50,403 nt of DNA from Clostridiaceae bacterium (GCA_016281115.1 JAEEHZ010000239.1:1-50403), one strand, 5' to 3'. Counted from the stretch's first letter, positions 4,286-43,405 are shown. Program-made: numbers and translations. The notes: a model not told the origin generated them from the letters alone.

Positions 4286-4360
4286 GGCCCCCTGGTCAAG
4301 CGGCTAAGACATCGCCCTCTCACGGCGAAAACGGGAGTTCGATTCTCCCGGGGGTCACCA
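4286..4360 (+). tRNA. tRNA-Glu (anticodon CUC)
   Basis: Cloverleaf read by hand: acceptor GGCCCCC/GGGGGTC, anticodon loop CT-CTC-AC, T arm GGGAG-TTCGATT-CTCCC, encoded CCA. Confidence 0.9.
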
Positions 4361-4367
4361 ATTTTGC

Positions 4368-4442
4368 GGCCCGTTGGTCAAGCGGTTAAGACACGGCCCT
4401 TTCACGGCTGTAACATGGGTTCGATTCCCGTACGGGTCACCA
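4368..4442 (+). tRNA. tRNA-Glu (anticodon UUC)
   Basis: GGCCCGTTGGTCAAGCGGTTAAGAC...CTTTCAC...GGTTCGATTCCCGTACGGGTCACCA. Canonical Firmicutes tRNA-Glu shape with CCA. Confidence 0.9.
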
Positions 4443-4550: not shown

Positions 4551-4778
4551 TTATTTTTTATGTTTTTTGGTGCTCAGTCCGAAAAGGCCGAGATAATGGT
4601 TTTTCAGAGCTTTTTTCCAATAATTGTATTCCGATTCGCTTGTCGCTCTGTGCATTTCCATCTTTATATATCTGGTTTCCTTTGAAAAAGGAACGATAAA
4701 TTCCGATATGACTTTTATCGCAAGCAGCAGCAATACCGCTATTGCAAAGATAATTACAAAAAAGGTTCCTGCACTCAT
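4551..4778 (-). CDS. small membrane protein, unknown function
   Basis: 75 aa with an N-terminal hydrophobic helix (FFVIIFAIAVLLLLAI) and its own terminator. Confidence 0.4.
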   Translation of the reverse strand: MSAGTFFVIIFAIAVLLLLAIKVISEFIVPFSKETRYIKMEMHRATSESEYNYWKKALKNHYLGLFGLSTKKHKK

Positions 4779-28562: not shown

Positions 28563-29276
28563 TTATTCCTCCAATAAATATACTTCGGCATATTGCACTC
28601 CAAAACTTCGTGCTTCTTCGTGAGAGTCAAAATATATATCAATTCTATTACCCTTGATGTTGCCACCGCGGTCTTCCGCTACATATTCTTGTCCGTTAAT
28701 CAACACTCTTGTGCCATAAGGTATTATATTGGTATCAACCGCTATACTGTGATTAGGGCGTAACGCACATCCGCTCGCTCCGTATACAATTTCTTTTCCG
28801 TTTTCGTCAACCGGACGATTTAATGCATATTTACCACAGCATTTTTCACATGAGCAATACGCAGTTAATTTATAATTTCCCAAAAGAATGTCTCCCGACG
28901 TGTCTTTAAGTATACCTTGATACATATCATCGTTTGTTTTAATATCATATTCTATATGTATCTCTTTATATTTGGACGGAGGAGGGTGTATACTATCCAT
29001 TATTCTTACCACGGCGCATAGTGCATCTGATTGATATAAGTCGTCTTTGTTATTAATACATATTTCGATAGGTTCTTTAACATATGTATATGTTTTTAAT
29101 GTGTATTGTTTTATATCAACAAAACCACATAAACCGCATACACAAACTGCTGTTGCAATTCCTATACAAAGCATCTTAGTGTTCAATATTTCACCTTCTT
29201 TCTCTTTTTTTCTTATATGTGCATTATATATAACAAAGTCGCAATCTACACAACGTTTGCGCAGCGAGTCTTTCAA
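28563..29276 (-). CDS. 3D-domain cell-wall-active protein
   Basis: C-terminal IAVD...YVAEDRGG...RIDIYF is a 3D/MltA-like domain, with an internal hydrophobic anchor. Start uncertain: TTG at 29276 or ATG at 29174. Confidence 0.65.
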   Translation of the reverse strand: MKDSLRKRCVDCDFVIYNAHIRKKEKEGEILNTKMLCIGIATAVCVCGLCGFVDIKQYTLKTYTYVKEPIEICINNKDDLYQSDALCAVVRIMDSIHPPPSKYKEIHIEYDIKTNDDMYQGILKDTSGDILLGNYKLTAYCSCEKCCGKYALNRPVDENGKEIVYGASGCALRPNHSIAVDTNIIPYGTRVLINGQEYVAEDRGGNIKGNRIDIYFDSHEEARSFGVQYAEVYLLEE

Positions 29277-29457
29277 GGTTGCGCAGGACGGTGTGTTTTA
29301 ATTATTTAATCTATTTTCTTTGTGACACTTTTACTAACAGCAAAAGTAGTTGCTAGATGAATATTATTAACAACCAATATACATTGCGACGATTATGTAG
29401 TTCCTATAATTTATAACTGAATGTGGCTGGCAACAGCCATTCTTCGGTATACTCACA

Positions 29458-29534
29458 ACTCCGAAAAATTAGTTGGAAAGATTTCTTCGACGGTTTCCCG
29501 TCTTCGAAATCTTTCTAACTAATTTTGAAGGAGT
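29458..29534. other. 77-nt near-perfect long hairpin (about 34 bp with small internal loops)
   Basis: ACTCC..AAAATTAGTTGGAAAGATTT..CGACGG-tttc-CCGTC..AAATCTTTCTAACTAATTTT..GGAGT read directly. Confidence 0.6.
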
Positions 29535-29635
29535 AAAGCAACCATTGCGTTACTATTGCTGACAGCAAATAGCAATCGTACTTTTAAAAAAAATACAATT
29601 AATCTGCATTATAGGTTTAAAATATTTTTTTATTT

Positions 29636-30160: not shown

Positions 30161-30411
30161 TCCTCATCACTCCATTTCAACGCTTGACCACAATGCTCGC
30201 AGAATGTAGTACCACCATTGATGATGTGTTCCTGCACATTGTCCTTTGATATGCTTCCCCCACAATTTGGACATACTGCCCACATCTGTTCATTTTCGAG
30301 TGGGTTTTTCGGTATCTGCTTTTCAAGGGCTTTTTTGATATTTTCATAATCTTCCAACATCCCCACAAACATCTGGTTCATAATGCGGGTTAATGTTTCT
30401 TTATTTGTCAT
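30157..30411 (-). CDS. zinc-ribbon protein (paralog family Z)
   Basis: CPNCGG...[14 protein letters not shown]. Shares the KALEKQIPK and CGQAL.WSDEE segments with its neighbour. Confidence 0.5.
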
Positions 30412-31022
30412 TCTTCTACCTCGCTATTGCTTGCTAACTCTGCAAGTTCTGATATTTTAAGTTCTCTCAAAAATGTTATTTCTGTTCCAACGCACTTGCT
30501 GTCGCAGTCATTTTCGCCTGTAACGCCTTTAAGTTCAACTTCAAATACACGAACATCTTTACCAATATTACCGCTGTAATAATTGAAAATATCGAGCGGA
30601 GACCTGCAAGCGTGAAAACCGCTTATACATAATTCCGCTTTATCGGTCTTATAAGTTTTCCCAAGTTTATACTGAAAACCATTACAACGCATCTTGCCGT
30701 TTGTTGCTTTGAAATAGAGGTCTTTGTATGTTTTAAGACCGTAACAACCTATGCTCGTAAGCGTGCTGCAATTACAGAACGCACATTTTCCTATGCTCGT
30801 AACGCTATCAGGTATTATTACGCCTTTAAGGCTTTTGCAACCGTAAAATGCATAATTTCCTATGCTCGTAACGCTGTTGGGAATATTTATACTTGTAAGA
30901 TTGGTGCAATAGGCGAAAGCACAATTACCAATACTCGTCACACTCTCTGGAATGTTTATGTTTGTTTTATTGCCTTCGTACTGTATCAATTCCCCATTTT
31001 CAATAACAAAATCTTTGTTCAT
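30408..31022 (-). CDS. BspA-type leucine-rich-repeat protein with conserved C-terminal domain (paralog 1 of 4)
   Basis: Repeats of ...P.SVTSIG..AF..C..L... then YFKATNG.M.C.GFQY...[13 protein letters not shown]...CVGTEITF. No signal peptide. Confidence 0.65.
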
Positions 31023-31324: not shown

Positions 31325-31773
31325 TCTTTTACCTCACTTTTAAGCCATTTGAGCCAATGTTCATAAGGCGAAGGAAAATAAATATCTACCAATTCCGCAA
31401 AGTCCGTAATTTGTTTGTTTATCCACTCCGCCAATTCCTCATCGCTCATCTCTCTTATCTTATCGCCGTTTGTCAATGAACCATTGTTGTATTTCCATTC
31501 TTTGTATGTCATAATTTTCGGATATTCTGCACCTGTATCTATGCAATGCTCAAATCCCCAAGATATTACATAATCTATATATCTTCCCCAATCTTCCGTG
31601 TCATCTTCATCCGAAATCATTGCTTGTTTCAACTCTATGCCGCTTTGCTCAAGCCATCCAAATTCATGTTCAAGATAGTCTATCGTTCCGTCGCTGGATA
31701 TTCCGTTTGTTTCTGCGTTTCTTATTGCGACATTTTCGTCAACACTTAATTCTACAAATACTTTTCTTTTCAT
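31321..31773 (-). CDS. hypothetical protein with TNGDKIR-MSD-ELA module
   Basis: AGGAGG RBS. C-terminal [18 protein letters not shown]...[11 protein letters not shown]. Confidence 0.5.
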   Translation of the reverse strand: MKRKVFVELSVDENVAIRNAETNGISSDGTIDYLEHEFGWLEQSGIELKQAMISDEDDTEDWGRYIDYVISWGFEHCIDTGAEYPKIMTYKEWKYNNGSLTNGDKIREMSDEELAEWINKQITDFAELVDIYFPSPYEHWLKWLKSEVKE

Positions 31774-31964
31774 ATTTCCTCCTGTTACAGTATGATTTTA
31801 CAACATTCAAGGTTGTAATTTTTTTGTTTTACATTGTGGTACAATTATAAACGAAGACGTTCTTAAAGAGAAACCATCTCTGGTTATAATAATAGTTTAC
31901 AATCTCTCATTGTGTTTTACCGGGAAGGTTCGAGCACTGTGACTCATAGTCTATATCTGCTGAC

Positions 31965-31977
31965 TTTTTTTTTTTTT
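31965..31977 (-). repeat. A13 homopolymer (RT sense)
   Basis: 13 consecutive T on the plus strand, counted directly. Confidence 0.95.
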
Positions 31978-31980
31978 GAA

Positions 31981-32036
31981 CTTCTTTTCTTTCTTTCCCT
32001 AGTTTTCCTTTCTTTCTCCTGCCTTACTTTTTTTTT
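31981..32036 (-). repeat. polypurine run (RT sense) ending in A9
   Basis: Plus strand is CTTCTTTTCTTTCTTTCCCTAGTTTTCCTTTCTTTCTCCTGCCTTAC plus T9. Almost pure pyrimidine. Confidence 0.9.
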
Positions 32037-32104
32037 CGAGTAAAGCTGTGGTTGCGCGGATTGGTCAGGGGTGTTCGTCGAGCGAGGTTCTCTCTTTCCG
32101 GTCT

Positions 32105-32140
32105 GTTCAAATTGTTACTTTTGCTATCAGCGAAAAGCAC
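32105..32140 (-). ncRNA. stem-loop + GUAAC-box element, copy D2
   Basis: RT sense GCTTTTCGC-TGATA-GCAAAAGT then AACAATTTGAAC. Shares the exact 14-mer AAGTAACAATTTGA with copy U. Confidence 0.6.
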
Positions 32141-32281
32141 ATTCAGATATGAATGTAATTTCATTGTAAACTCAGATTAATTGCTTGTCATCTACATAGA
32201 TTGGATACCTGTTGCCGGGAGTGGAGGCGAGTGCATCTAACATCATTGCGTTCGTTCCTTGGAAATCTTCCTCGTTCTTGA

Positions 32282-32298
32282 TTTTTTTTTTTTTTTTT
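32282..32298 (-). repeat. A17 homopolymer (RT sense)
   Basis: 17 consecutive T on the plus strand. Confidence 0.95.
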
Positions 32299-32346
32299 AA
32301 ACGCCTAACCGCAATGCCTAATAATACTAGAATTCTTTTCCTGCTA

Positions 32347-32363
32347 TTTTTTTTTTTTTTTTT
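32347..32363 (-). repeat. A17 homopolymer (RT sense)
   Basis: 17 consecutive T on the plus strand. Confidence 0.95.
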
Positions 32364-32430
32364 GCAGTAGGTTTGTTTCTTTCCTGCACTGACGCTTCTT
32401 GGTTTGGTGCAGTAGGGCATTGTGTTTTCA

Positions 32431-32443
32431 TTTTTTTTTTTTT
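32431..32443 (-). repeat. A13 homopolymer (RT sense)
   Basis: 13 consecutive T on the plus strand, starting 2 nt after copy D1 in RT sense. Confidence 0.95.
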
Positions 32444-32445
32444 CC

Positions 32446-32479
32446 GACAATGAGTTACTTCTGCTTACAGCTAAAAGTG
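32446..32479 (-). ncRNA. stem-loop + GUAAC-box element, copy D1
   Basis: RT sense ACTTTTAGC-TGTAA-GCAGAAGT then AACTCATTGTC, about 45 nt after the RT stop codon. Confidence 0.6.
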
Positions 32480-32522
32480 TCCATTAAGCATGGACTATAC
32501 ATGACATAGCAAATTATTTATC

Positions 32523-33662
32523 TTATGATTTTAAATCGCTTCGAATTAATTCAACAATATTCACATTGAATTTATTACCAATATGTTCTACCAGCTTATC
32601 TATCGAAGTTCCTTCTACCATACGGTAATAATTCCTGTACCCCTCCATTATCTGGACATCGGATACGTCCCAGGGCTTTCCGTTTTGTTTATCCATGACA
32701 TATGATGCTAGCATCGCTTGAAATTGTCTTTTCTTTTTATGCCCTACGGTAATTTGGTTATCTTTATTCAACATTACCCCAAGATTCCAGTTGGAGCCGG
32801 CAGATGAACCGTATCGCGTTTTCTTTGAATTGATTGTAAATGGAGCTTCGAAATTGTTCAAAGTGTTGATAATAAACTGTTCTATTTCTTTAAATTTAAA
32901 TGTATATTTTGAGGATATTAAAAAATCGTCTGCATATCTGGTATAAACATAATGCTGGTTGTTATATTCTCTTAAACCATTTGAAAGTTTGAAGTCTATG
33001 GGTATCATCATTACATTTGTGATAACTGGGGATATCGGGGTACCCTGCGGAAGTCCTCCGTCCAGAAATGCAAGTTCCAGCGCCTGACTTAATTCTTTTT
33101 TTCCGATATCATGTTTCATAATTTCCGAAAACGGATAAATCATTGAAAACATCTTTAACACAAATTCCAGACTTGTGCTGCCAAAAAAGTTTGATAAATC
33201 ATATTTTCCAAACCATTTGCTTTCATTTGCCTGATGTCGTTTTACCGCATCAATCGTGCTGCGTTTTCTTATATATGCAAACGCCGACGTATGATATAAG
33301 ACGTGGAAGTCGTTTTCAAAAATTGTTTTAAGTCTGCGTAAAGCGTCCATAAGTTCGGGCTCCGGCGCATCTATCTTACGCAACCCGCCGCTTTTTTTAG
33401 GTATATAAAATTCTCGATATAAAGATTTTCTTGGCTTATTACGCAGTTCCTCGGTTGATTTATTAAACTGTATTAATTTAATGATAAGTTCGCCAATATT
33501 TAACCCGTACGGGCGTTTGCTATTTATATTTTTTACCTCATATGTACGTGTATTTGTAATATTTGGACTAATAATCTGTGGTTTTATTTCCGCTTCGAAT
33601 AAAAATTCTTCCAAAGTCATTTGGTGATACTTTGGCGGCTGTTTAATCGTAATATAAGTCAT
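32523..33662 (-). CDS. reverse transcriptase, retron/DRT-like (RT domain only, about 380 aa)
   Basis: YREFYIPKKSGGLRKIDAP, KYDLSNFFGS (motif A), LPQGTPISPVITN (motif B'), YTRYADDFLISS (motif C), KKTRY...NLGVML. Start at the ATG at 33662 behind GAGGTG. Confidence 0.9.
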   Translation of the reverse strand: MTYITIKQPPKYHQMTLEEFLFEAEIKPQIISPNITNTRTYEVKNINSKRPYGLNIGELIIKLIQFNKSTEELRNKPRKSLYREFYIPKKSGGLRKIDAPEPELMDALRRLKTIFENDFHVLYHTSAFAYIRKRSTIDAVKRHQANESKWFGKYDLSNFFGSTSLEFVLKMFSMIYPFSEIMKHDIGKKELSQALELAFLDGGLPQGTPISPVITNVMMIPIDFKLSNGLREYNNQHYVYTRYADDFLISSKYTFKFKEIEQFIINTLNNFEAPFTINSKKTRYGSSAGSNWNLGVMLNKDNQITVGHKKKRQFQAMLASYVMDKQNGKPWDVSDVQIMEGYRNYYRMVEGTSIDKLVEHIGNKFNVNIVELIRSDLKS

Positions 33663-33886
33663 TTTTTTCACCTCGTTATTTAGATTTACTGTAATCAAAT
33701 AGTATTGAGCTGCATCGCTCTCCATCTGATGGAAGGCCGATCTTTTCTGGGAATTTCTTTAGGATTTCTAAATTTGGCGGTTGGTTGGATGTGTTAATGT
33801 GTGACAATTGCGTTTATGTCTATATTAAATTCGATTGTTCTGGTGGCAGCATTATTTGCATCCTGGTGCTGGTTATTCTTTTTCCC

Positions 33887-33920
33887 GTCAAATTGTTACT
33901 TCCGCCTTCGGCAAGAAGCT
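33887..33920 (-). ncRNA. stem-loop + GUAAC-box element, copy U (upstream of RT)
   Basis: RT sense AGCTTCTTGC-CGAAG-GCGGAAGT then AACAATTTGAC, inside the 290-nt ORF-free leader of the RT. Confidence 0.6.
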
Positions 33921-33951
33921 ACCGTTAGGTAAATAACATTACAGTATTTTT

Positions 33952-34395
33952 TTATATTTTTTTAGATCTTAAACTTTTATTAATTCTTTCTTGCAGGCGT
34001 ATTGGTTTTCCTTTACGCATATCAGTTTGCCCGGGTTTTATGCGAGTGTTTAGTCCCGACGTCATTAAGCGCTCCGGCATATGGTTTAATAACGCATGCG
34101 TTTTCATCTCAGCAGAATACGCCTCTGATGTAGTTTTACAACGCCGACATAATCCGAATTTTTCTTTATAATTATCTATAGTCATGCTATGACTTTCTTT
34201 GACGTGAGAGCCCAGGCGTTTATATGCTCTGCCACAAATATGGCATACTACATACCCACGATAATCTTTAACAATTACACCGTCGGGCGGAAGATCGTTC
34301 ATTTCTCCCCCGGTTTTTAGATACCTATAACAAGCCTGACATCTGGATCCATATGGGCGTCCGCGGATTACATCTCCGCAAAAGGAACATGTCAT
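33952..34395 (-). CDS. zinc-finger protein with Ros/MucR-like DNA-binding motif
   Basis: CHICGRAYKRLGSHVKESHSMTIDNYKEKFGL resembles the MucR C2H2-type finger. N-terminal CSFCG...CQAC ribbon. Start at 34395 behind GGGAGGGGG. Confidence 0.5.
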   Translation of the reverse strand: MTCSFCGDVIRGRPYGSRCQACYRYLKTGGEMNDLPPDGVIVKDYRGYVVCHICGRAYKRLGSHVKESHSMTIDNYKEKFGLCRRCKTTSEAYSAEMKTHALLNHMPERLMTSGLNTRIKPGQTDMRKGKPIRLQERINKSLRSKKI

Positions 34396-34577
34396 ATTAC
34401 CGCCCCCTCCCAACAACCATCTACAGAGACGTCTGCTAGATTAGATATCAAATCATCCGCATCTACCTCGTCAAACATTTTAAGCGCCATGTCGCATGCT
34501 TCGTCTTCTGAGTCGGCGTCGATTTTAAAATTCCACGATCCTTCGTAGTGTACAGCAACATTGTAAAACATAGTCAT
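34392..34577 (-). CDS. hypothetical acidic protein
   Basis: 61-aa ORF in the operon. Confidence 0.4.
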   Translation of the reverse strand: MTMFYNVAVHYEGSWNFKIDADSEDEACDMALKMFDEVDADDLISNLADVSVDGCWEGAVI

Positions 34578-34780
34578 TCTCCTTTCTTTGTTTTGTTATC
34601 AAGTAAATTTATATTATCGGTTTGGCGTGCAAGTTTTACAGCCAATGTAATAATTGATTCAATCATTCTATCCGTATAAGCACACTCATTTCCGAAATTG
34701 TTTGTGTAGTCGATATATGCACGTGACTCAGACATGATACCAGAGACGCAACTACGTATTTTTATTTCTTTGGTTGTCAT
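34574..34780 (-). CDS. hypothetical protein
   Basis: Start at the ATG at 34780 behind AAGGAG. Confidence 0.4.
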   Translation of the reverse strand: MTTKEIKIRSCVSGIMSESRAYIDYTNNFGNECAYTDRMIESIITLAVKLARQTDNINLLDNKTKKGE

Positions 34781-35441
34781 TTTTTCGACTCCTTTCATTG
34801 TTTTTGCTTGCTAACTCTGCAAGTTCAGATATTGTCAATTCTCTTATAAATGTTATCTCTGTTCCGACGCATTTGCTATCGTGTTTATTTTCATTTGTAA
34901 CGCCTTTCAAAGCCACCTCGAAAAGACGAATATCTTTATCAATTTTTCCGTTGTAATAATTGAATACGTCTAACGGTGACCTGCAAGCGTGAAAACCACA
35001 TTCACATAATTGCGCTTTATCGATTTTGTAAGTCTTAACAAGTTCATATTGAAATCCTTGACATTGCATATCACCATTCGTTGCTTTAAAGTAGCGGTCT
35101 TTGTAAGTTTTAAGGCTGCTGCAATTGTAGAATACTCTGCCTCCGATGCTCGTCACACTGTCGGGAATAGTTATGTTTGCAAGACTGTAGCAGTTATTGA
35201 ACGCATATTTTCCTATGCTCGTCACACTATTGCCAATTATAGCATTTGTAAGGCTACTACAATTATCGAACACACAGTTCCCGATGCTCGTCACACTGTC
35301 GCCAATTATTATGCTTGTAAGATTACTACAACCATAGAACGCCCAGTCTTTTATACTTGTAACGCTGTTTGGAATAACCACCTTTGTACCTCTTCCGTTG
35401 TATTTAATCAATGTTCCATTTTCGATTTCAAATTCTTTCAT
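34752..35441 (-). CDS. BspA-type LRR protein with conserved C-terminal domain (paralog 2 of 4)
   Basis: Same repeat and C-terminal [15 protein letters not shown]...CVGTEITF architecture. Confidence 0.65.
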   Translation of the reverse strand: MKEFEIENGTLIKYNGRGTKVVIPNSVTSIKDWAFYGCSNLTSIIIGDSVTSIGNCVFDNCSSLTNAIIGNSVTSIGKYAFNNCYSLANITIPDSVTSIGGRVFYNCSSLKTYKDRYFKATNGDMQCQGFQYELVKTYKIDKAQLCECGFHACRSPLDVFNYYNGKIDKDIRLFEVALKGVTNENKHDSKCVGTEITFIRELTISELAELASKNNERSRKNDNQRNKNT

Positions 35442-35455
35442 TTGTTAATTCCTCC

Positions 35456-36040
35456 TCATTTTTCGCTTGCTAATCTCGCAAGTTCCGATATTGTCAACTC
35501 TCGCAAAAATGTTATCTCTGTTCCAACACATTTTCTATCACCGAAGTGGTTTTCCTCTGTTACGCCTTTGAGTTCAACCTCGAATAACCGTACATCTTTG
35601 CCAAGTTCACCGTAATAATGATTGAACACATCTAACGGACTGCGGCACGCGTGAAAACCATACTCGCATAGTTTTGCTTTGTCGGTTTTATAAGTTTTCC
35701 CGAGTTCATACTGAAAATCTCGACAACGCATGTTTCCGTCCGTTGCTTTGAAATAGCGGTCTTTATAAGTTTTAAGGCTTTCGCAAGCGTAGAACGCACC
35801 GCCTCCTATACCTGTTACGCTATCGGGAATATTTATACTCGTAAGACTGCTACAACTATCGAAAGCATAATGTCCTATGCTCGTAACACTATCGGGGATA
35901 GTTATGCTCGTAAGATTTATGCAACCGTCGAAAGCACAATTACCAATGCTCGTAATCCCGTCTGGGATTTTTACATTTGTATTTTTGTCTGTATATTTAA
36001 TTAAAACTCCGTCTTTAATAACAAAATCTTTGTTTTTCAT
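35456..36040 (-). CDS. BspA-type LRR protein with conserved C-terminal domain (paralog 3 of 4)
   Basis: Same architecture, in tandem with paralog 2. Confidence 0.65.
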
Positions 36041-39700: not shown

Positions 39701-40372
39701 TTAAAATACATCAAGCATTCCGTGAAAACCGTCAATTTGCGTGAACTTCCAGATACCGTTTCCTTTTACAAAATTGATATAATTATTTACTCCAAGCGCG
39801 CATATAAGCCGCACCGTTGTCGCTACCCCGAGCGTCACTCCGCAAGCCGATACCGGAGTTTCTTCCGCCGCTTCTTCGTGTGAAAATTGCATAGATTTTA
39901 ACAAATCCTGTTTCATTTTATAATCGCTCCAGTCCGCCGCATAATGCTGTGCGGATTCAAGTAAAGTTCTGAAATCAAATACCGCTTTTACATACGGACT
40001 GTCCATATGTTTTTCCACGATACTTCTCCGCAATTCAATATTATCTACCGCTATAAAAATATATCCCGACATTAATTTGCCCTGCCACCCCTCGGGTTTA
40101 AGTTCAATTTCGTCTGCGATTTCCGGATTAATATCTATAAGAATGTCTTTTAACGCATCAACTTTTAATTTACCTATATCCTGCTGGCGAAACATCTGGT
40201 TACAAATATTATGAGCTTCAACTTTATCAAAGTCCCACAGCGTCATTTTTGTTATACCGCATCTCGCTAAATTTTCTGCAAGTGTAGAACCCACAGAGCC
40301 ACAACCAACAATATGAATGCGGGATGTGTCTTTTTCCGGCTGGAAAAATTCATAAGACTTGCTTAAATCCAT
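39701..40372 (-). CDS. ThiF/MoeB-family E1-like adenylyltransferase (short form)
   Basis: Rossmann GxGxxG in IVGCGSVGSTLAENLARCG and DFDKVEAHNICNQ. 223 aa. Confidence 0.75.
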   Translation of the reverse strand: MDLSKSYEFFQPEKDTSRIHIVGCGSVGSTLAENLARCGITKMTLWDFDKVEAHNICNQMFRQQDIGKLKVDALKDILIDINPEIADEIELKPEGWQGKLMSGYIFIAVDNIELRRSIVEKHMDSPYVKAVFDFRTLLESAQHYAADWSDYKMKQDLLKSMQFSHEEAAEETPVSACGVTLGVATTVRLICALGVNNYINFVKGNGIWKFTQIDGFHGMLDVF

Positions 40373-40374
40373 AA

Positions 40375-40926
40375 TTACACCTCTTCGCGCATTTGCATTA
40401 TTGTTATATCTTCAATACTGATATTACCAGTATCAGAATCATCCTCATCACCAATATGCTGAATTGCATCACTGCAAGACGTAAATAACTCATCAAACGA
40501 TAAGCTTTCTTCTTCTGCACAAATTTCATCTTCGATGTTTATATCGCCATCCGGATCTTCTTCTTCGAGTGATTCCGGATTTTCTCCTTCGTCATCTTCC
40601 CATATATCGTTGTCGTCACACCATTCAAGCACTGCATCGCATTTTGCGTCATAATCATCACCATCTGCGCCTCGCCACGTGCCGTCGTAATCATCTCTTA
40701 TGTAATAATCACATCCCTCTGGTAAGTCGTTAAGCCAGTCACGGATCTCCTGCCAACTTTCATCCCGAAGAAGATCTTCTATTTCTTGCTCAATTGATTC
40801 TGAATAACTATCAGCAGTCCAAACGTCGTCAACATAGTCATCGCAACCGTTTTCATTACAAAAGTCTATTAAATCGTACCAATCCCAATCGTTATACGCA
40901 ACATCAACAAATTCTTCTCTTGTCAT
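40375..40926 (-). CDS. highly acidic hypothetical protein
   Basis: 183 aa, very rich in D/E (for example EDDEGENPESLEEEDPDGD). Confidence 0.45.
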   Translation of the reverse strand: MTREEFVDVAYNDWDWYDLIDFCNENGCDDYVDDVWTADSYSESIEQEIEDLLRDESWQEIRDWLNDLPEGCDYYIRDDYDGTWRGADGDDYDAKCDAVLEWCDDNDIWEDDEGENPESLEEEDPDGDINIEDEICAEEESLSFDELFTSCSDAIQHIGDEDDSDTGNISIEDITIMQMREEV

Positions 40927-40940
40927 TTAAATTAACCTCC

Positions 40941-41807
40941 TTAATCCATGCAATATCCGTGGCGGCTATACCAACTCACAATATCATCATCGTCATCAAG
41001 CGCGTCAAAATGCTGTTCTTTAATGCGTCCGCCGCGTATTCCCCTTCGTCTGTGTCTTGTGGGTATATCCTCTTCTTTGTCTGTTGTTGTCTTTGAGTCG
41101 GACGTAAATCCAATAGTATTTCCGGGCTTTTGTGTGCTTATTACATGTGTGCTTATTACAACGGCTTTATCGCAAACCATTGTTTTGGCGTCAGTGATAA
41201 ATTTTTCAAGTCCCGTGCCGTCGTCCAAAATCTCAACTTTACAGTCTGATGTTTCGAATAATATGTTCTTTGCCATATCATATATTTTTATTGTCTTGTC
41301 GCCTTTTTTGTTCCATATCATAAATATATAAAACATTGTGTCATCAAGCTGTTCGAGGATTCTATCATATAAGGCGGTATCGACAGAAGACGGCGATGTT
41401 CCCATGTTGACATGCGAGTGCCCCTGCATTCTGATATTGTTAAACACGTCATCTTCGTGTGTCATAAGCCACGTCTGATATTTCGCCTGATCTGTGGTTA
41501 CCGTTGCACCGGTTACTTCCTGTGGATAAACAAGAATGTCGGTGATATAATATTCGTCTTTTGATGCGTCGTCACCTCTTTTTGCTATGCCGTGCCAAGC
41601 GACTTCTTTATCAAATTCCTTAATTAATGTTTGCATTTTTAACCAAGCAAGCTCTGTAAAATAAACAGTCGCTTCTCGTTTAATACCCGAAAACGACTTC
41701 GAGAAACTTATTTTGCCATCGGATAATTTAGCGGCTTGAATCGCTTCATTAAACGCTCGCTTTATTTCTTCTATGTTTTCCGGGGTTAATTTAATTATTT
41801 TAGCCAT
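40941..41807 (-). CDS. JAB/MPN (JAMM) metallopeptidase-domain protein
   Basis: JAMM signature H-S-H-x7-S-x2-D in QGHSHVNMGTSPSSVD. Confidence 0.75.
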   Translation of the reverse strand: MAKIIKLTPENIEEIKRAFNEAIQAAKLSDGKISFSKSFSGIKREATVYFTELAWLKMQTLIKEFDKEVAWHGIAKRGDDASKDEYYITDILVYPQEVTGATVTTDQAKYQTWLMTHEDDVFNNIRMQGHSHVNMGTSPSSVDTALYDRILEQLDDTMFYIFMIWNKKGDKTIKIYDMAKNILFETSDCKVEILDDGTGLEKFITDAKTMVCDKAVVISTHVISTQKPGNTIGFTSDSKTTTDKEEDIPTRHRRRGIRGGRIKEQHFDALDDDDDIVSWYSRHGYCMD

Positions 41808-43287: not shown

Positions 43288-43320
43288 ACCAAACTCCTCT
43301 CTTATTCTTGTTTTTTTTTT

Positions 43321-43405
43321 TGGTGGGGAATGCCGGACTCGAACCGGCACGGATTAATCCATCGGATTTTAAGTCCGAAGCGTCTGCCAATTTCACCAAT
43401 TCCCC
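43321..43405 (-). tRNA. tRNA-Leu (anticodon UAA)
   Basis: GGGGAAT...anticodon arm TCGGA-CTTAAAA-TCCGA, long variable arm GGA-TTAA-TCC, T arm GCCGG-TTCGAGT-CCGGC, CCA. Confidence 0.9.

What the first reader, a model, noticed from the sequence alone, without database searches (positions are those of the whole stretch)
31965..32443. Five long homopolymer tracts (A13, A17, A17, A9, A13 in RT sense) and a 47-nt polypurine run directly 3' of the RT
Plus-strand T-runs of 13, 9, 17, 17 and 13 nt lie at 31965-77, 32028-36, 32282-98, 32347-63 and 32431-43. I saw no other homopolymer run of this length (13 nt or more) elsewhere in the 50 kb. In RT sense the order is: stem-loop D1, GUAAC box, A13, a 67-nt unit, A17, a 48-nt unit, A17, about 140 nt, stem-loop D2, GUAAC box, about 70 nt, A9, a polypurine run (GGCAGGAGAAAGAAAGGAAAACTAGGGAAAGAAAGAAAAGAAG), then A13. 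Short repeats recur after the tracts (AAAACACAATG twice, CCTACTGCA twice). Tracts this long are unstable in replication, so their clustering next to an RT suggests function or an RT-linked origin. Option (a): they are templates for homopolymeric cDNA, poly-dT if the RNA is RT-sense, which would be conceptually related to the poly-dA products reported for DRT9. Option (b): they are A-tailed units resembling 3' ends of retrotransposed RNAs, meaning RT-mediated capture of polyadenylated RNA fragments. Option (c): they are slippage-prone phase-variation switches.
Basis: partly seen in the sequence, partly recalled or inferred. Interest (0 to 1): 0.8.

Follow-up and report, generated by a model that had tools for sequence, protein, structure and literature searches.

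The report
A-tracts inside phage retron-like RNA genes
The long T-runs are real, but they sit in the fast-changing middle of repeated retron-like RNA genes that flank a phage reverse transcriptase, and close relatives lack them, so the repeated RNA genes rather than the runs are the notable feature.

Summary
The five T-runs are present exactly as described, and they are far from chance: 0.03-0.14 runs of 13 or more are expected in 50 kb, and four occur within 480 nt.

They are not free-standing. In RT sense (minus strand) they lie in the middle of two tandem units, U2 and U3, of about 300 nt each. These units belong to a repeated structured element. Each unit has:
- an inverted repeat a1 followed by a conserved G;
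- two hairpins;
- an AGUAAC box;
- a variable middle;
- a conserved AUGUAG junction;
- the matching repeat a2.

The window has five units: U1 lies 5' of the RT, U2 and U3 lie 3' of it, and U4 and U5 lie 2.3 kb further on. The RT is closest to retron RTs and keeps YADD.

In 80 related gut-phage loci I found 173 units, all on the RT strand. a1/a2 covary, and G follows a1 in 125 of 137 units. This is the layout of a retron msr-msd RNA, but multi-copy, phage-borne and without a conserved effector.

The tracts are not conserved:
- Relatives with a 97%-identical RT lack the three U2 tracts and have A19 or A17 where the window has A9.
- Relatives at 73-81% have no run of 8 or more.

Most likely the tracts are slippage-prone low-complexity sequence in the least constrained (template) part of these RNAs.

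The parts
32523..33662 (-). Reverse transcriptase gene (379 aa from ATG 33662). It is retron-lineage and the catalytic YADD is intact.
   Evidence: Best matches: PADLOC retron RT_II-A at 1.7e-46; PDB retron Ec83 RT at 6e-19; NCBIfam retron_St85_RT at 174 bits, below its cutoff of 235. The Foldseek top 12 hits are all retron RTs. YTRYADD is invariant in the family alignment.
33687..33946 (-). Unit U1, 5' of the RT. a1 is 33946-33938 (TACTGTAAT), the G is at 33937, hairpin 2 + AGTAAC box is 33919-33895, and a2 is 33695-33687 (ATTACAGTA). It has no long homopolymer.
   Evidence: The inverted repeat is 9/9 complementary. CM R1 scores 75.3 bits. The fold closes with a1/a2.
32181..32512 (-). Unit U2, directly 3' of the RT. 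a1 is 32512-32501, the G is at 32500, hairpin 1 is 32495-32479, hairpin 2 + AGTAAC box is 32477-32454, and a2 is 32191-32181, preceded by ATGTAG. It holds three of the tracts.
   Evidence: CM R1 scores 55.3 bits. The fold closes with a1/a2.
32431..32443 (-). A13 (T13 on the + strand), just after the U2 box, in the purine-rich segment that follows the box in most units.
   Evidence: In relatives with a 97%-identical RT the site reads GGGAAAATAGAAC.
32347..32363 (-). A17 (T17 on the + strand) in the U2 middle.
   Evidence: It is replaced by AAAGAGAAAAG in L013/L016.
32282..32298 (-). A17 (T17 on the + strand) in the U2 middle.
   Evidence: It is replaced by an (AT)n microsatellite in L013/L016.
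31887..32179 (-). Unit U3, in tandem with U2. The a1 core is 32172-32163 (AGTTTACAAT), the G is at 32162, hairpin 2 + AGTAAC box is 32138-32114, and the a2 core is 31903-31894. It holds A9, the polypurine run and A13.
   Evidence: The arms are 17 nt and 82% complementary. CM R1 scores 53.1 bits. Fold.
32028..32036 (-). A9 (T9 on the + strand) in the U3 middle. Its length is polymorphic.
   Evidence: The run is A19 in L013 and A17 in L016 at the aligned site.
31981..32023 (-). 43-nt polypurine run in the U3 middle.
   Evidence: Coordinates are. L013 is also purine-rich here, but with a different sequence.
31965..31977 (-). A13 (T13 on the + strand) in the U3 middle.
   Evidence: It is replaced by about 40 nt of AT-rich sequence in L013/L016.
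29403..29615 (-). Unit U4, a divergent copy 2.3 kb downstream. a1 is CCTATAAT followed by G, hairpin 2 + AGTAAC box is 29573-29549, there is a long hairpin of about 85 nt, and a2 is ATTATAGG.
   Evidence: Read from the sequence. The whole-unit fold is -77.4 kcal/mol with z = -9.05. CM R1 gives only 12.6 bits.
29238..29390 (-). Unit U5, a short divergent copy. a1 is GTCGCAAT followed by G, hairpin 2 + box is 29349-29322, and a2 is ATTGCGAC, preceded by GTGTAG.
   Evidence: CM R1 gives 14.6 bits.

Best explanation
The tracts lie inside two of five copies of a retron-like non-coding RNA gene that accompany a phage-encoded retron-lineage reverse transcriptase.

Unit anatomy, 5' to 3' on the RT strand:
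- a1, ending UGYAAU;
- a conserved G;
- two hairpins;
- an AGUAAC box;
- a purine-rich stretch;
- a poorly constrained middle;
- a conserved AUGUAG;
- a2, starting AUURCA.

Inferred mechanism, by analogy with retrons:
- The units are co-transcribed with the RT.
- a1 pairs with a2.
- The RT primes on the G beside that helix.
- It copies the RNA from just 5' of a2 back through the middle.
- Each unit therefore gives its own small cDNA.

In this phage the U2 and U3 cDNAs would carry T13-T17 blocks and a polypyrimidine block.

The A-runs themselves are most likely not a required signal. They are lineage-specific expansions produced by slippage in an A/purine-rich, weakly constrained template segment. 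That explains why they are enriched in such units, yet change length or vanish between near-identical phages.

Shown in silico: the units, their strand, the a1/a2 covariation, the conserved G, the RT lineage and the non-conservation of the tracts. Inferred: reverse transcription of the units, priming on the G, and the neutral or slippage origin of the tracts.
For: RT lineage:
- Retron models and structures are the best hits by every method, far ahead of DRT2/DRT9.
- YADD is conserved.

Units:
- Model R1 finds only U1-U3 strongly in the 50 kb, plus weak U4 and U5.
- It finds 173 copies in 80 related loci, all on the RT strand, clustered just 5' and just 3' of the RT. Most loci have 2-4 copies.
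- The best a1/a2 helix averages 9.7 consecutive pairs against 7.1 for shuffled a1.
- Many different a1 sequences each have a matching a2.
- G follows a1 in 125 of 137 units, and the median unit is 302 nt.
- Internal non-Watson-Crick positions in the helix are G.U-type 16 times and A.C-type 2 times, so the helix forms in an RT-sense strand.
- The junction logo is conserved.
- U4 has a canonical long hairpin, with fold z = -9.

Tracts:
- They are absent or altered in relatives with a 97%-identical RT, while the unit ends are nearly identical.
- The middles are at random-level identity although RT third codon positions are 92% identical.
- Relatives at 73-81% have no run of 8 or more.
- Across 80 loci, 8 of 14 A-runs of 9 or more fall in the 4.5% of sequence covered by units, about 28-fold enrichment. 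Only about 5% of units have one, positions are not fixed, and there are no T-runs in RT sense.
- Length polymorphism is seen: A9/A19/A17 and A9/A10/A12/A9.
Against: - There is no experimental evidence that any cDNA is made.
- The retron signature motifs are diverged: NAxxH reads AVKRH and VTG reads NLG.
- The RT scores below the NCBIfam retron cutoff.
- The middles of U1-U3, and of units in general, are only weakly structured (z about -1), unlike the long msd hairpin of classical retrons.
- No conserved effector gene is present.
- The end of a1 (TGTAAT/TACAAT) resembles a -10 hexamer and a2 (ATGACA/ATTACA) a -35. The a2 of U2 and the a1 of U3 form a sigma-70-like promoter match. Part of the sequence conservation could therefore be transcriptional.
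- The 28-fold enrichment of A-runs in units shows that something favours them there. Selection for A-tracts in some lineages is not excluded.
Confidence: 0.65

Rival explanations
1. The A-tracts are functional templates. The RT copies them into oligo-dT blocks, possibly lengthened by slippage. These blocks give the cDNA a specific activity, such as binding A-rich RNA or a host protein, or acting as flexible single-stranded linkers between DNA hairpins.
For: - The tracts lie in the part of the unit that a retron-type RT would copy.
- A-runs are about 28-fold enriched in units, and always as A in RT sense.
- In U2 the A13 and the second A17 flank a predicted long-range stem, 32427-32416 with 32318-32307 (I6).
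- U3 stays purine-rich in L013 although its sequence differs.
Against: - About 95% of units have no run of 9 or more.
- Positions are not fixed.
- Phages with a 97%-identical RT lack the three U2 tracts.
- Whole clades with identical unit architecture have none.
Confidence: 0.15
2. The tracts have an RT-linked origin. Error-prone or slipping cDNA from the units is recombined back into the phage genome, so the template segment accumulates homopolymer and microsatellite expansions and turns over quickly.
For: - The middles of all three RT-proximal units are unalignable between phages whose RT third codon positions are 92% identical.
- An A17 is replaced by (AT)n, and an A9 by A19 or A17.
- In the L037 clade, 37% of middle columns vary against 8% of RT columns, with many indels.
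Against: - In the P0029 clade the middles vary at about the rate of RT third positions. That is 8.5% of middle columns against 3.9% of all RT columns, and third positions are 94% identical. This fits simple lack of constraint.
- There is no adenine-specific (DGR-like) spectrum.
- Ordinary replication slippage, plus cassette exchange by recombination between the conserved unit ends, explains the same data.
Confidence: 0.1
3. The units are cis-acting transcript elements unrelated to reverse transcription, such as promoters, leaders or RNase III processing stems for the RT operon. The A-runs are then just spacer sequence.
For: - The a2 of U2 plus the a1 of U3 match a sigma-70 promoter (ATGACA-17-TACAAT).
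- Units precede genes and end a few bases before ribosome-binding sites.
- Some loci have extra units several kb from the RT.
Against: - Units are confined to the neighbourhood of the RT in a 50-kb window with about 60 genes.
- a1/a2 covary over up to 12 bp, well beyond the hexamers.
- The conserved G/UAG junction and the co-occurrence with a retron-type RT match a primer-template RNA.
Confidence: 0.08
4. The tracts are assembly or sequencing artefacts.
For: Long homopolymers are error-prone in short-read data, so the A19 versus A17 difference could be noise.
Against: - The same five tracts with identical lengths appear in an independent Logan assembly (L017).
- Related loci from other samples carry A-runs at comparable places.
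Confidence: 0.02

Closest known systems
Retrons (RT + msr-msd ncRNA, usually with an effector; for example Ec86/Eco1, Ec83/Eco4, Ec78/Eco7)
   Same: - The RT is closest to retron RTs by HMM and by fold.
- The ncRNA is on the RT strand.
- Flanking inverted repeats a1/a2 are present, with a conserved G immediately 3' of a1. In Ec86 this is the position of the branching G; that comparison is from my own knowledge of Ec86.
- Stem-loops follow the G.
- The template part is variable.
- One unit (U4) has a long hairpin.
   Different: - There are 2-5 ncRNA copies per locus, on both sides of the RT, instead of one upstream.
- Units are about 300 nt, and most have weakly structured, low-complexity middles.
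- There is no conserved effector.
- The system is carried in the early/replication region of roughly 100-kb phages of gut Clostridia rather than in a host defence island.
- The NAxxH and VTG motifs are diverged.
- The RT has an N-terminal extension of about 65 aa.
UG27 reverse-transcriptase systems of gut phages, with variable arrays of ncRNAs (Mestre et al. 2022, PMC9226505; bioRxiv 10.64898/2026.09.22.753630)
   Same: - The RT is phage-borne, in gut Bacillota/Bacteroidota phages.
- It is accompanied by several copies of a structurally conserved, sequence-diverse ncRNA.
- Copy number varies, and extra units occur in neighbouring intergenic regions.
- In UG27 each unit was shown to template a short cDNA. 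This is the best functional analogue.
   Different: - UG27 is a class 2 UG/Abi RT with YSDD, and it needs two accessory proteins (sORF and bORF).
- UG27 units are about 135-167 nt, with AUCN7UANAG and UUYA motifs and a pseudoknot.
- Here the RT is retron-type with YADD.
- Here the units are about 300 nt, with a1-G...AUGUAG-a2.
- No conserved pair of accessory ORFs was seen.
DRT9 (UG28): protein-primed poly-dA synthesis (PMC12483538)
   Same: An RT lies next to an ncRNA that holds a homopolymer-type template, and slippage on such a tract is conceivable.
   Different: - The RT family is different. DRT9 structures rank 19th or lower by fold, and no DRT9 model appears among the top sequence hits.
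- The product here would be T-rich, not poly-dA.
- The tracts are embedded in mixed sequence and are not conserved.
Diversity-generating retroelements (DGRs) of phages
   Same: A phage-encoded RT lies next to a non-coding template, and a nearby sequence is hypervariable.
   Different: - There is no template-repeat/variable-repeat pair. The middles have no second copy in the window.
- There is no adenine-specific substitution pattern.
- The RT is not DGR-type.

Membership tests
Retron | The RT belongs to the retron RT lineage. | tested here: met
   - PADLOC: the top 25 hits are all retron RT models, the best at 1.7e-46.
- PDB: retron Ec83 RT at 6e-19, against DRT2 at 9e-4.
- Foldseek: the top 12 hits are all retron RTs.
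- NCBIfam: retron_St85_RT at 174 bits, which is below its curated cutoff of 235.
Retron | The characteristic retron RT motifs NAxxH and VTG are present. That these motifs are characteristic is from my own knowledge of the retron literature. | tested here: not met
   Aligned to Ec83, NAKIH corresponds to AVKRH and VTG to NLG. The family consensus is DAVKRH and NWNLG.
Retron | The ncRNA has flanking inverted repeats a1/a2 and a conserved G immediately 3' of a1. | tested here: met
   - Helix score is 9.7 against 7.1 for shuffled a1.
- G follows a1 in 125 of 137 units, with many covarying a1/a2 pairs.
- G.U-type positions outnumber A.C-type 16 to 2.
- Junction logo.
Retron | A stable msd hairpin lies between msr and a2. 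| tested here: inconclusive
   U4 has a hairpin of about 85 nt (z = -9), and other clades have 10-bp hairpins in the middle. The middles of U1-U3, and the family average, are weakly structured (z about -1).
Retron | A branched RNA-DNA product (msDNA) is made, with a 2'-5' link at the G. | not testable with these tools
   This needs nucleic-acid extraction, a debranching assay and cDNA sequencing.
Retron | A cognate effector gene is present (tripartite system). | tested here: not met
   Genes flanking the RT differ between loci. The neighbours that recur (ThiF-like E1 and others) are phage synteny, and in this window they lie 6 kb from the RT.
UG27 RT-ncRNA array | The RT is a class 2 UG/Abi RT with a YSDD active site. 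| tested here: not met
   YADD is invariant. Retron models beat Drt2 by 174 to 44 bits. No UG27 sequence was available for a direct comparison.
UG27 RT-ncRNA array | Two conserved accessory proteins (sORF and bORF) are required for cDNA synthesis. | tested here: inconclusive
   Clustering of neighbouring ORFs shows no pair of domain-less ORFs fixed next to the RT. The UG27 accessory sequences could not be searched directly.
UG27 RT-ncRNA array | Units are about 135-167 nt with AUCN7UANAG and UUYA motifs. | tested here: not met
   The median unit is 302 nt. The junction motif is AUGUAG|AUURCA, with no conserved AUC.
DRT9 (UG28) | A UG28 RT with an upstream ncRNA makes protein-primed poly-dA. 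| tested here: not met
   The RT lineage is retron. The tracts are A in RT sense, so the product would be dT, and they are not conserved.
DGR | A template repeat and a variable repeat differ at adenines, and the RT is DGR-type. | tested here: not met
   There is no second copy of the middle segments in the window. There is no adenine-specific variation. The RT is not DGR-type.

The most novel reading that the evidence does not exclude
A phage-encoded 'multi-template retron'. One retron-lineage RT serves an array of 3-5 self-priming RNAs whose template cassettes turn over rapidly, so the phage makes a changing set of small cDNAs. In this phage some would be oligo-dT-rich and polypyrimidine-rich. 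The phage would use them for its own benefit, for example as decoys or sponges against host defences or nucleic-acid-binding proteins. The A-tracts would be created or maintained by RT or replication slippage in those cassettes.
Probability: 0.3. Interest if true: 0.8.

Novelty: new variant of a known kind. Interest (0 to 1): 0.6.

Why it matters
Retrons are understood as bacterial anti-phage systems with one template RNA and a toxic effector. Here a retron-lineage RT with several cognate template RNAs and no conserved effector sits in the genomes of abundant gut Clostridia phages. At least 556 IMG/VR stretches encode a relative of this RT, and thousands of proteins match it.

Together with the recently reported UG27 arrays, this suggests that phages have recruited reverse transcription of RNA arrays more than once. 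That makes the question 'what do phages do with small cDNAs?' directly testable.

The units also offer natural examples of one RT accepting several templates with very different cargo, including long homopolymers. This is relevant to retron-based DNA production. The homopolymer tracts themselves matter less. They mark the unconstrained cargo position and would be a convenient read-out of slippage.

Tried and rejected
- **DNA similarity to known phages:** blastn of the locus against 50,697 phage records gave no match.
- **Rfam:** only tRNAs reached the gathering threshold. A permissive scan of 29.2-34.0 kb gave nothing significant. The best RT-related hit was RT-17 at 21.9 bits against a cutoff of 40.4 (E 0.87), overlapping the start of the next gene.
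- **Ad hoc hairpin scan:** a hairpin + GTAAC regular-expression scan was too strict and mostly returned noise.
- **RNAalifold:** on the first alignment it recovered only part of hairpin 2, because a 1-nt bulge shifts the register.
- **Automatic a2 detection:** it mis-assigned the a2 of U2 to a chance match inside U3. I corrected this by hand to the bulged helix 32512-32501 with 32191-32181.
- **Fold-statistics script:** one run timed out and was repeated on a sample.
- **Captured-RNA idea:** there are no source copies of the inter-tract segments in the window. The host genome could not be searched.
- **DGR idea:** there is no adenine-specific spectrum.
- **Replication-origin or bent-DNA idea:** there is no GC-skew switch and there are no iterons.
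- **Terminator idea:** the runs do not follow GC-rich stems on either strand.
- **Coding idea:** the 92-aa ORF 32172-32450 spans hypervariable sequence, and gene callers call nothing here in relatives.
- **Miniature transposon idea:** all 173 copies share the RT strand, and a1/a2 differ between copies with compensatory changes.

Full report
**Observation**

The homopolymer scan confirms T13, T9, T17, T17 and T13 at the stated coordinates. The only other run of 10 or more in the window is a T11 beside a tRNA-Leu gene. Under base composition 0.03 runs of 13 or more are expected, and 0.135 under a first-order Markov model. Four lie within 480 nt. The spacings, the 43-nt polypurine run and the short repeats are as described. 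An independent assembly with an identical RT (L017) has identical tracts.

**Context**

The window is a phage. It carries a DNA polymerase, a DnaB-like helicase, a primase, NrdD and an integrase, and nearly all genes are on the minus strand. The ORF at 32523-33662 (-) is a reverse transcriptase. By every method it is closest to retron RTs:
- PADLOC retron RT_II-A at 1.7e-46, with all 25 top hits being retron models.
- PDB retron Ec83 RT at 6e-19, against DRT2 at 9e-4.
- NCBIfam retron_St85_RT at 174 bits, below its cutoff of 235, against Drt2 at 44 bits.
- Foldseek on a moderate AlphaFold model (pLDDT 65.6), where the top 12 hits are all retron RTs.

YADD is invariant in the family. The retron motifs NAxxH and VTG read AVKRH and NLG.

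**What the tracts sit in**

Read in RT sense, the 750-nt non-coding stretch 3' of the RT and the 290-nt stretch 5' of it contain three copies of one element. Its parts, in order, are:
- an inverted repeat a1 followed by G;
- a small variable hairpin;
- a conserved hairpin (GCUUYYGCYG...AGCRRAAG) ending in an AGUAAC box;
- a purine-rich stretch;
- a middle of about 150-200 nt;
- a conserved 3' part ending AUGUAG;
- a2, complementary to a1.

U1 (33946-33687) has no long run. U2 (32512-32181) holds A13, A17 and A17. U3 (32179-31887) holds A9, the polypurine run and A13.

Two more divergent copies lie 2.3 kb downstream. U4 (29615-29403) has a long hairpin and a whole-unit fold z-score of -9. U5 (29390-29238) is short.

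A covariance model built from 16 unit 5' parts finds only these copies in the 50-kb window. No Rfam family matches.

**Family evidence**

The RT family is large. It has 5,297 proteins at E<=1e-20, and close relatives sit on contigs of about 90-120 kb. At least 556 IMG/VR stretches encode a relative. In genome collections, members with 40% identity or more are in Clostridia MAGs (Roseburia, Lachnospiraceae, Oscillospiraceae). Below about 35% identity the hits are ordinary bacterial retron RTs.

In 80 IMG/VR loci the model finds 173 units:
- All are on the RT strand.
- They cluster just 5' of the RT, just 3' of it, and about 300 nt further 3'.
- Loci have 0 to 4 detected units, most often 3.
- The best a1/a2 helix averages 9.7 consecutive pairs, against 7.1 for shuffled a1.
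- a1 sequences differ widely and a2 matches each (for example AAGCATGTAAT/ATTACATGCTT and AATACCTGTGAT/ATCACAGGTATT).
- G follows a1 in 125 of 137 non-redundant units, and the median unit length is 302 nt.
- Non-Watson-Crick positions inside the helix are G.U-type 16 times and A.C-type 2 times, so the helix forms in the RT-sense strand.
- The junction is conserved: UGYAAU|G on the 5' side and AUGUAG|AUURCA on the 3' side.

This is the layout of a retron msr-msd RNA. In Ec86 the branching G directly follows a1 (my own knowledge). The differences are that the RNA is multi-copy, sits on both sides of the RT and is phage-borne. The genes flanking the RT differ between loci. The neighbours that recur (a ThiF-like E1 and others) are phage synteny, and in this window they lie 6 kb away.

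**Are the tracts conserved?**

No. In L013 and L016 (RT 97% identical):
- The unit 5' parts and a2-proximal parts are nearly identical to the window.
- The three U2 tracts are replaced by GAAAATAGAAC, AAAGAGAAAAG and an (AT)n microsatellite.
- The A9 of U3 is A19 in L013 and A17 in L016.
- The A13 of U3 is replaced by about 40 nt of AT-rich sequence.

BLAST aligns everything except the three middles. Global identity of the middles equals that of shuffled sequence (0.45-0.49), although RT third codon positions are 92% identical. Relatives with RTs at 81%, 78% and 73% identity have no run of 8 or more. The 73% group comprises six samples encoding the identical RT protein.

Across the 80 loci:
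- 8 of the 14 A-runs of 9 or more fall in the 4.5% of sequence covered by units, about 28-fold enrichment.
- Two of the remaining runs lie 4-23 nt before a unit.
- None is a T-run in RT sense.
- Only about 5% of units carry a run, the longest is A15, and positions vary.

Another lineage shows A9, A10, A12 and A9 at one site.

The middles evolve at or above the rate of RT third codon positions:
- L037 clade: 37% of middle columns vary against 8% of RT columns.
- P0029 clade: 8.5% of middle columns vary against 3.9% of RT columns.
- There is no adenine-specific bias.

**Interpretation**

The tracts mark the least constrained 'cargo' position of retron-like template RNAs. If the RT works as retron RTs do, U2 and U3 would yield cDNAs with T13-T17 blocks and a polypyrimidine block. 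Because near-identical phages do without the tracts, they are best read as slippage-driven expansions in an A/purine-rich segment, not as a required signal. The window's middles are 40-45% A, against about 30% for the family.

A functional role for oligo-dT blocks, or an RT-dependent origin of the expansions, is not excluded. Both are listed as rivals.

Caveats:
- No cDNA has been demonstrated.
- The retron motifs are diverged.
- Most middles are weakly structured.
- The end of a1 and a2 resemble -10 and -35 hexamers.

**Comparison with known systems**

The closest family is the retron. The closest functional analogue is the UG27 RT system of gut phages. Its variable arrays of roughly 150-nt ncRNAs were recently shown to template short cDNA hairpins. 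UG27 has YSDD, needs two accessory proteins, and has different unit motifs and sizes, so this is not UG27. DRT9 and DGR are excluded by RT lineage and by the lack of their defining features. Literature searches found no description of a retron-lineage RT with multiple flanking ncRNAs in phages.

**Verdict**

What is really there is a new, widespread, phage-borne variant of the retron theme. The tracts are a lineage-specific by-product of it.

Noticed in passing
window 39701-41807 (-); L003 368-3660; L178 747-1418; L181 1466-2140: This looks like a phage-encoded ubiquitin-like conjugation module. It has a ThiF/E1-like gene (Pfam ThiF, 4e-22), a neighbour with a JAMM-type HxHx7Sx2D motif (seen in the L003 homologue) and a small beta-grasp-like ORF. 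In 75 of 81 related loci the module lies directly upstream of the first RNA unit and the RT. In this window about 6 kb of other genes separate them.
   Followed up: partly
window 29238-29615 (-): Two further divergent retron-like units (U4 and U5) lie 2.3 kb downstream of U3. U4 has a very stable hairpin of about 85 nt (whole-unit z = -9). The covariance model scores both only weakly, so copy numbers in other loci are probably underestimated.
   Followed up: yes
window 28563-29276 (-): The mechanical ORF for the peptidase-like gene (PHROG L-alanyl-D-glutamate peptidase) starts at a TTG inside unit U5. The real start is probably further in, near 29185-29174, after a GAAGGTGA ribosome-binding site.
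   Followed up: no
L013 about 4350-4375 and 4640-4680; L016 same region: Where the window has A17 and A13, the phages with a 97%-identical RT have an (AT)8-9 microsatellite and an AT-rich block of about 40 nt. The low-complexity character persists while the repeat type changes.
   Followed up: partly
window 32163-32191 (-): The a2 of U2 (ATGACA) and the a1 of U3 (TACAAT) are 17 nt apart and match a sigma-70 promoter at 10 of 12 positions. The conserved ends of a1 and a2 resemble -10 and -35 hexamers in general.
   Followed up: partly
window 34752-35441, 35456-36040, 30408-31022 (-): Three paralogous genes encoding BspA-type leucine-rich repeats plus DUF7666 flank the RT region.
   Followed up: no
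window 33952-34416 (-): The gene directly upstream of U1 encodes a ROS/MucR-type zinc-finger protein (Pfam 3.6e-10). It is also present in L013-L016 but not next to the RT in other clades.
   Followed up: no
window 43311-43321: A T11 run abuts the 3' end of tRNA-Leu(taa) at 43321-43405 (-). It is the only other run of 10 or more in the window.
   Followed up: no
window 31709-31814 (-): There is a weak sub-threshold Rfam hit to 'RT-17 RNA' (21.9 bits against a cutoff of 40.4, E 0.87). It spans the end of the non-coding region and the start of the next gene and is probably chance.
   Followed up: no
L076-L078, about 2731 and 3612: G9-G10 runs recur at two fixed sites upstream of the RT in one clade. 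They are the only non-A runs of 9 or more in the 80 loci.
   Followed up: no
RT residues 1-65 (window 33662-33468): The N-terminal extension of about 65 aa (MxYITxxQxPxYxQMTLEEFLF...) is conserved in the family and absent from classical retron RTs. It is modelled with low confidence.
   Followed up: no
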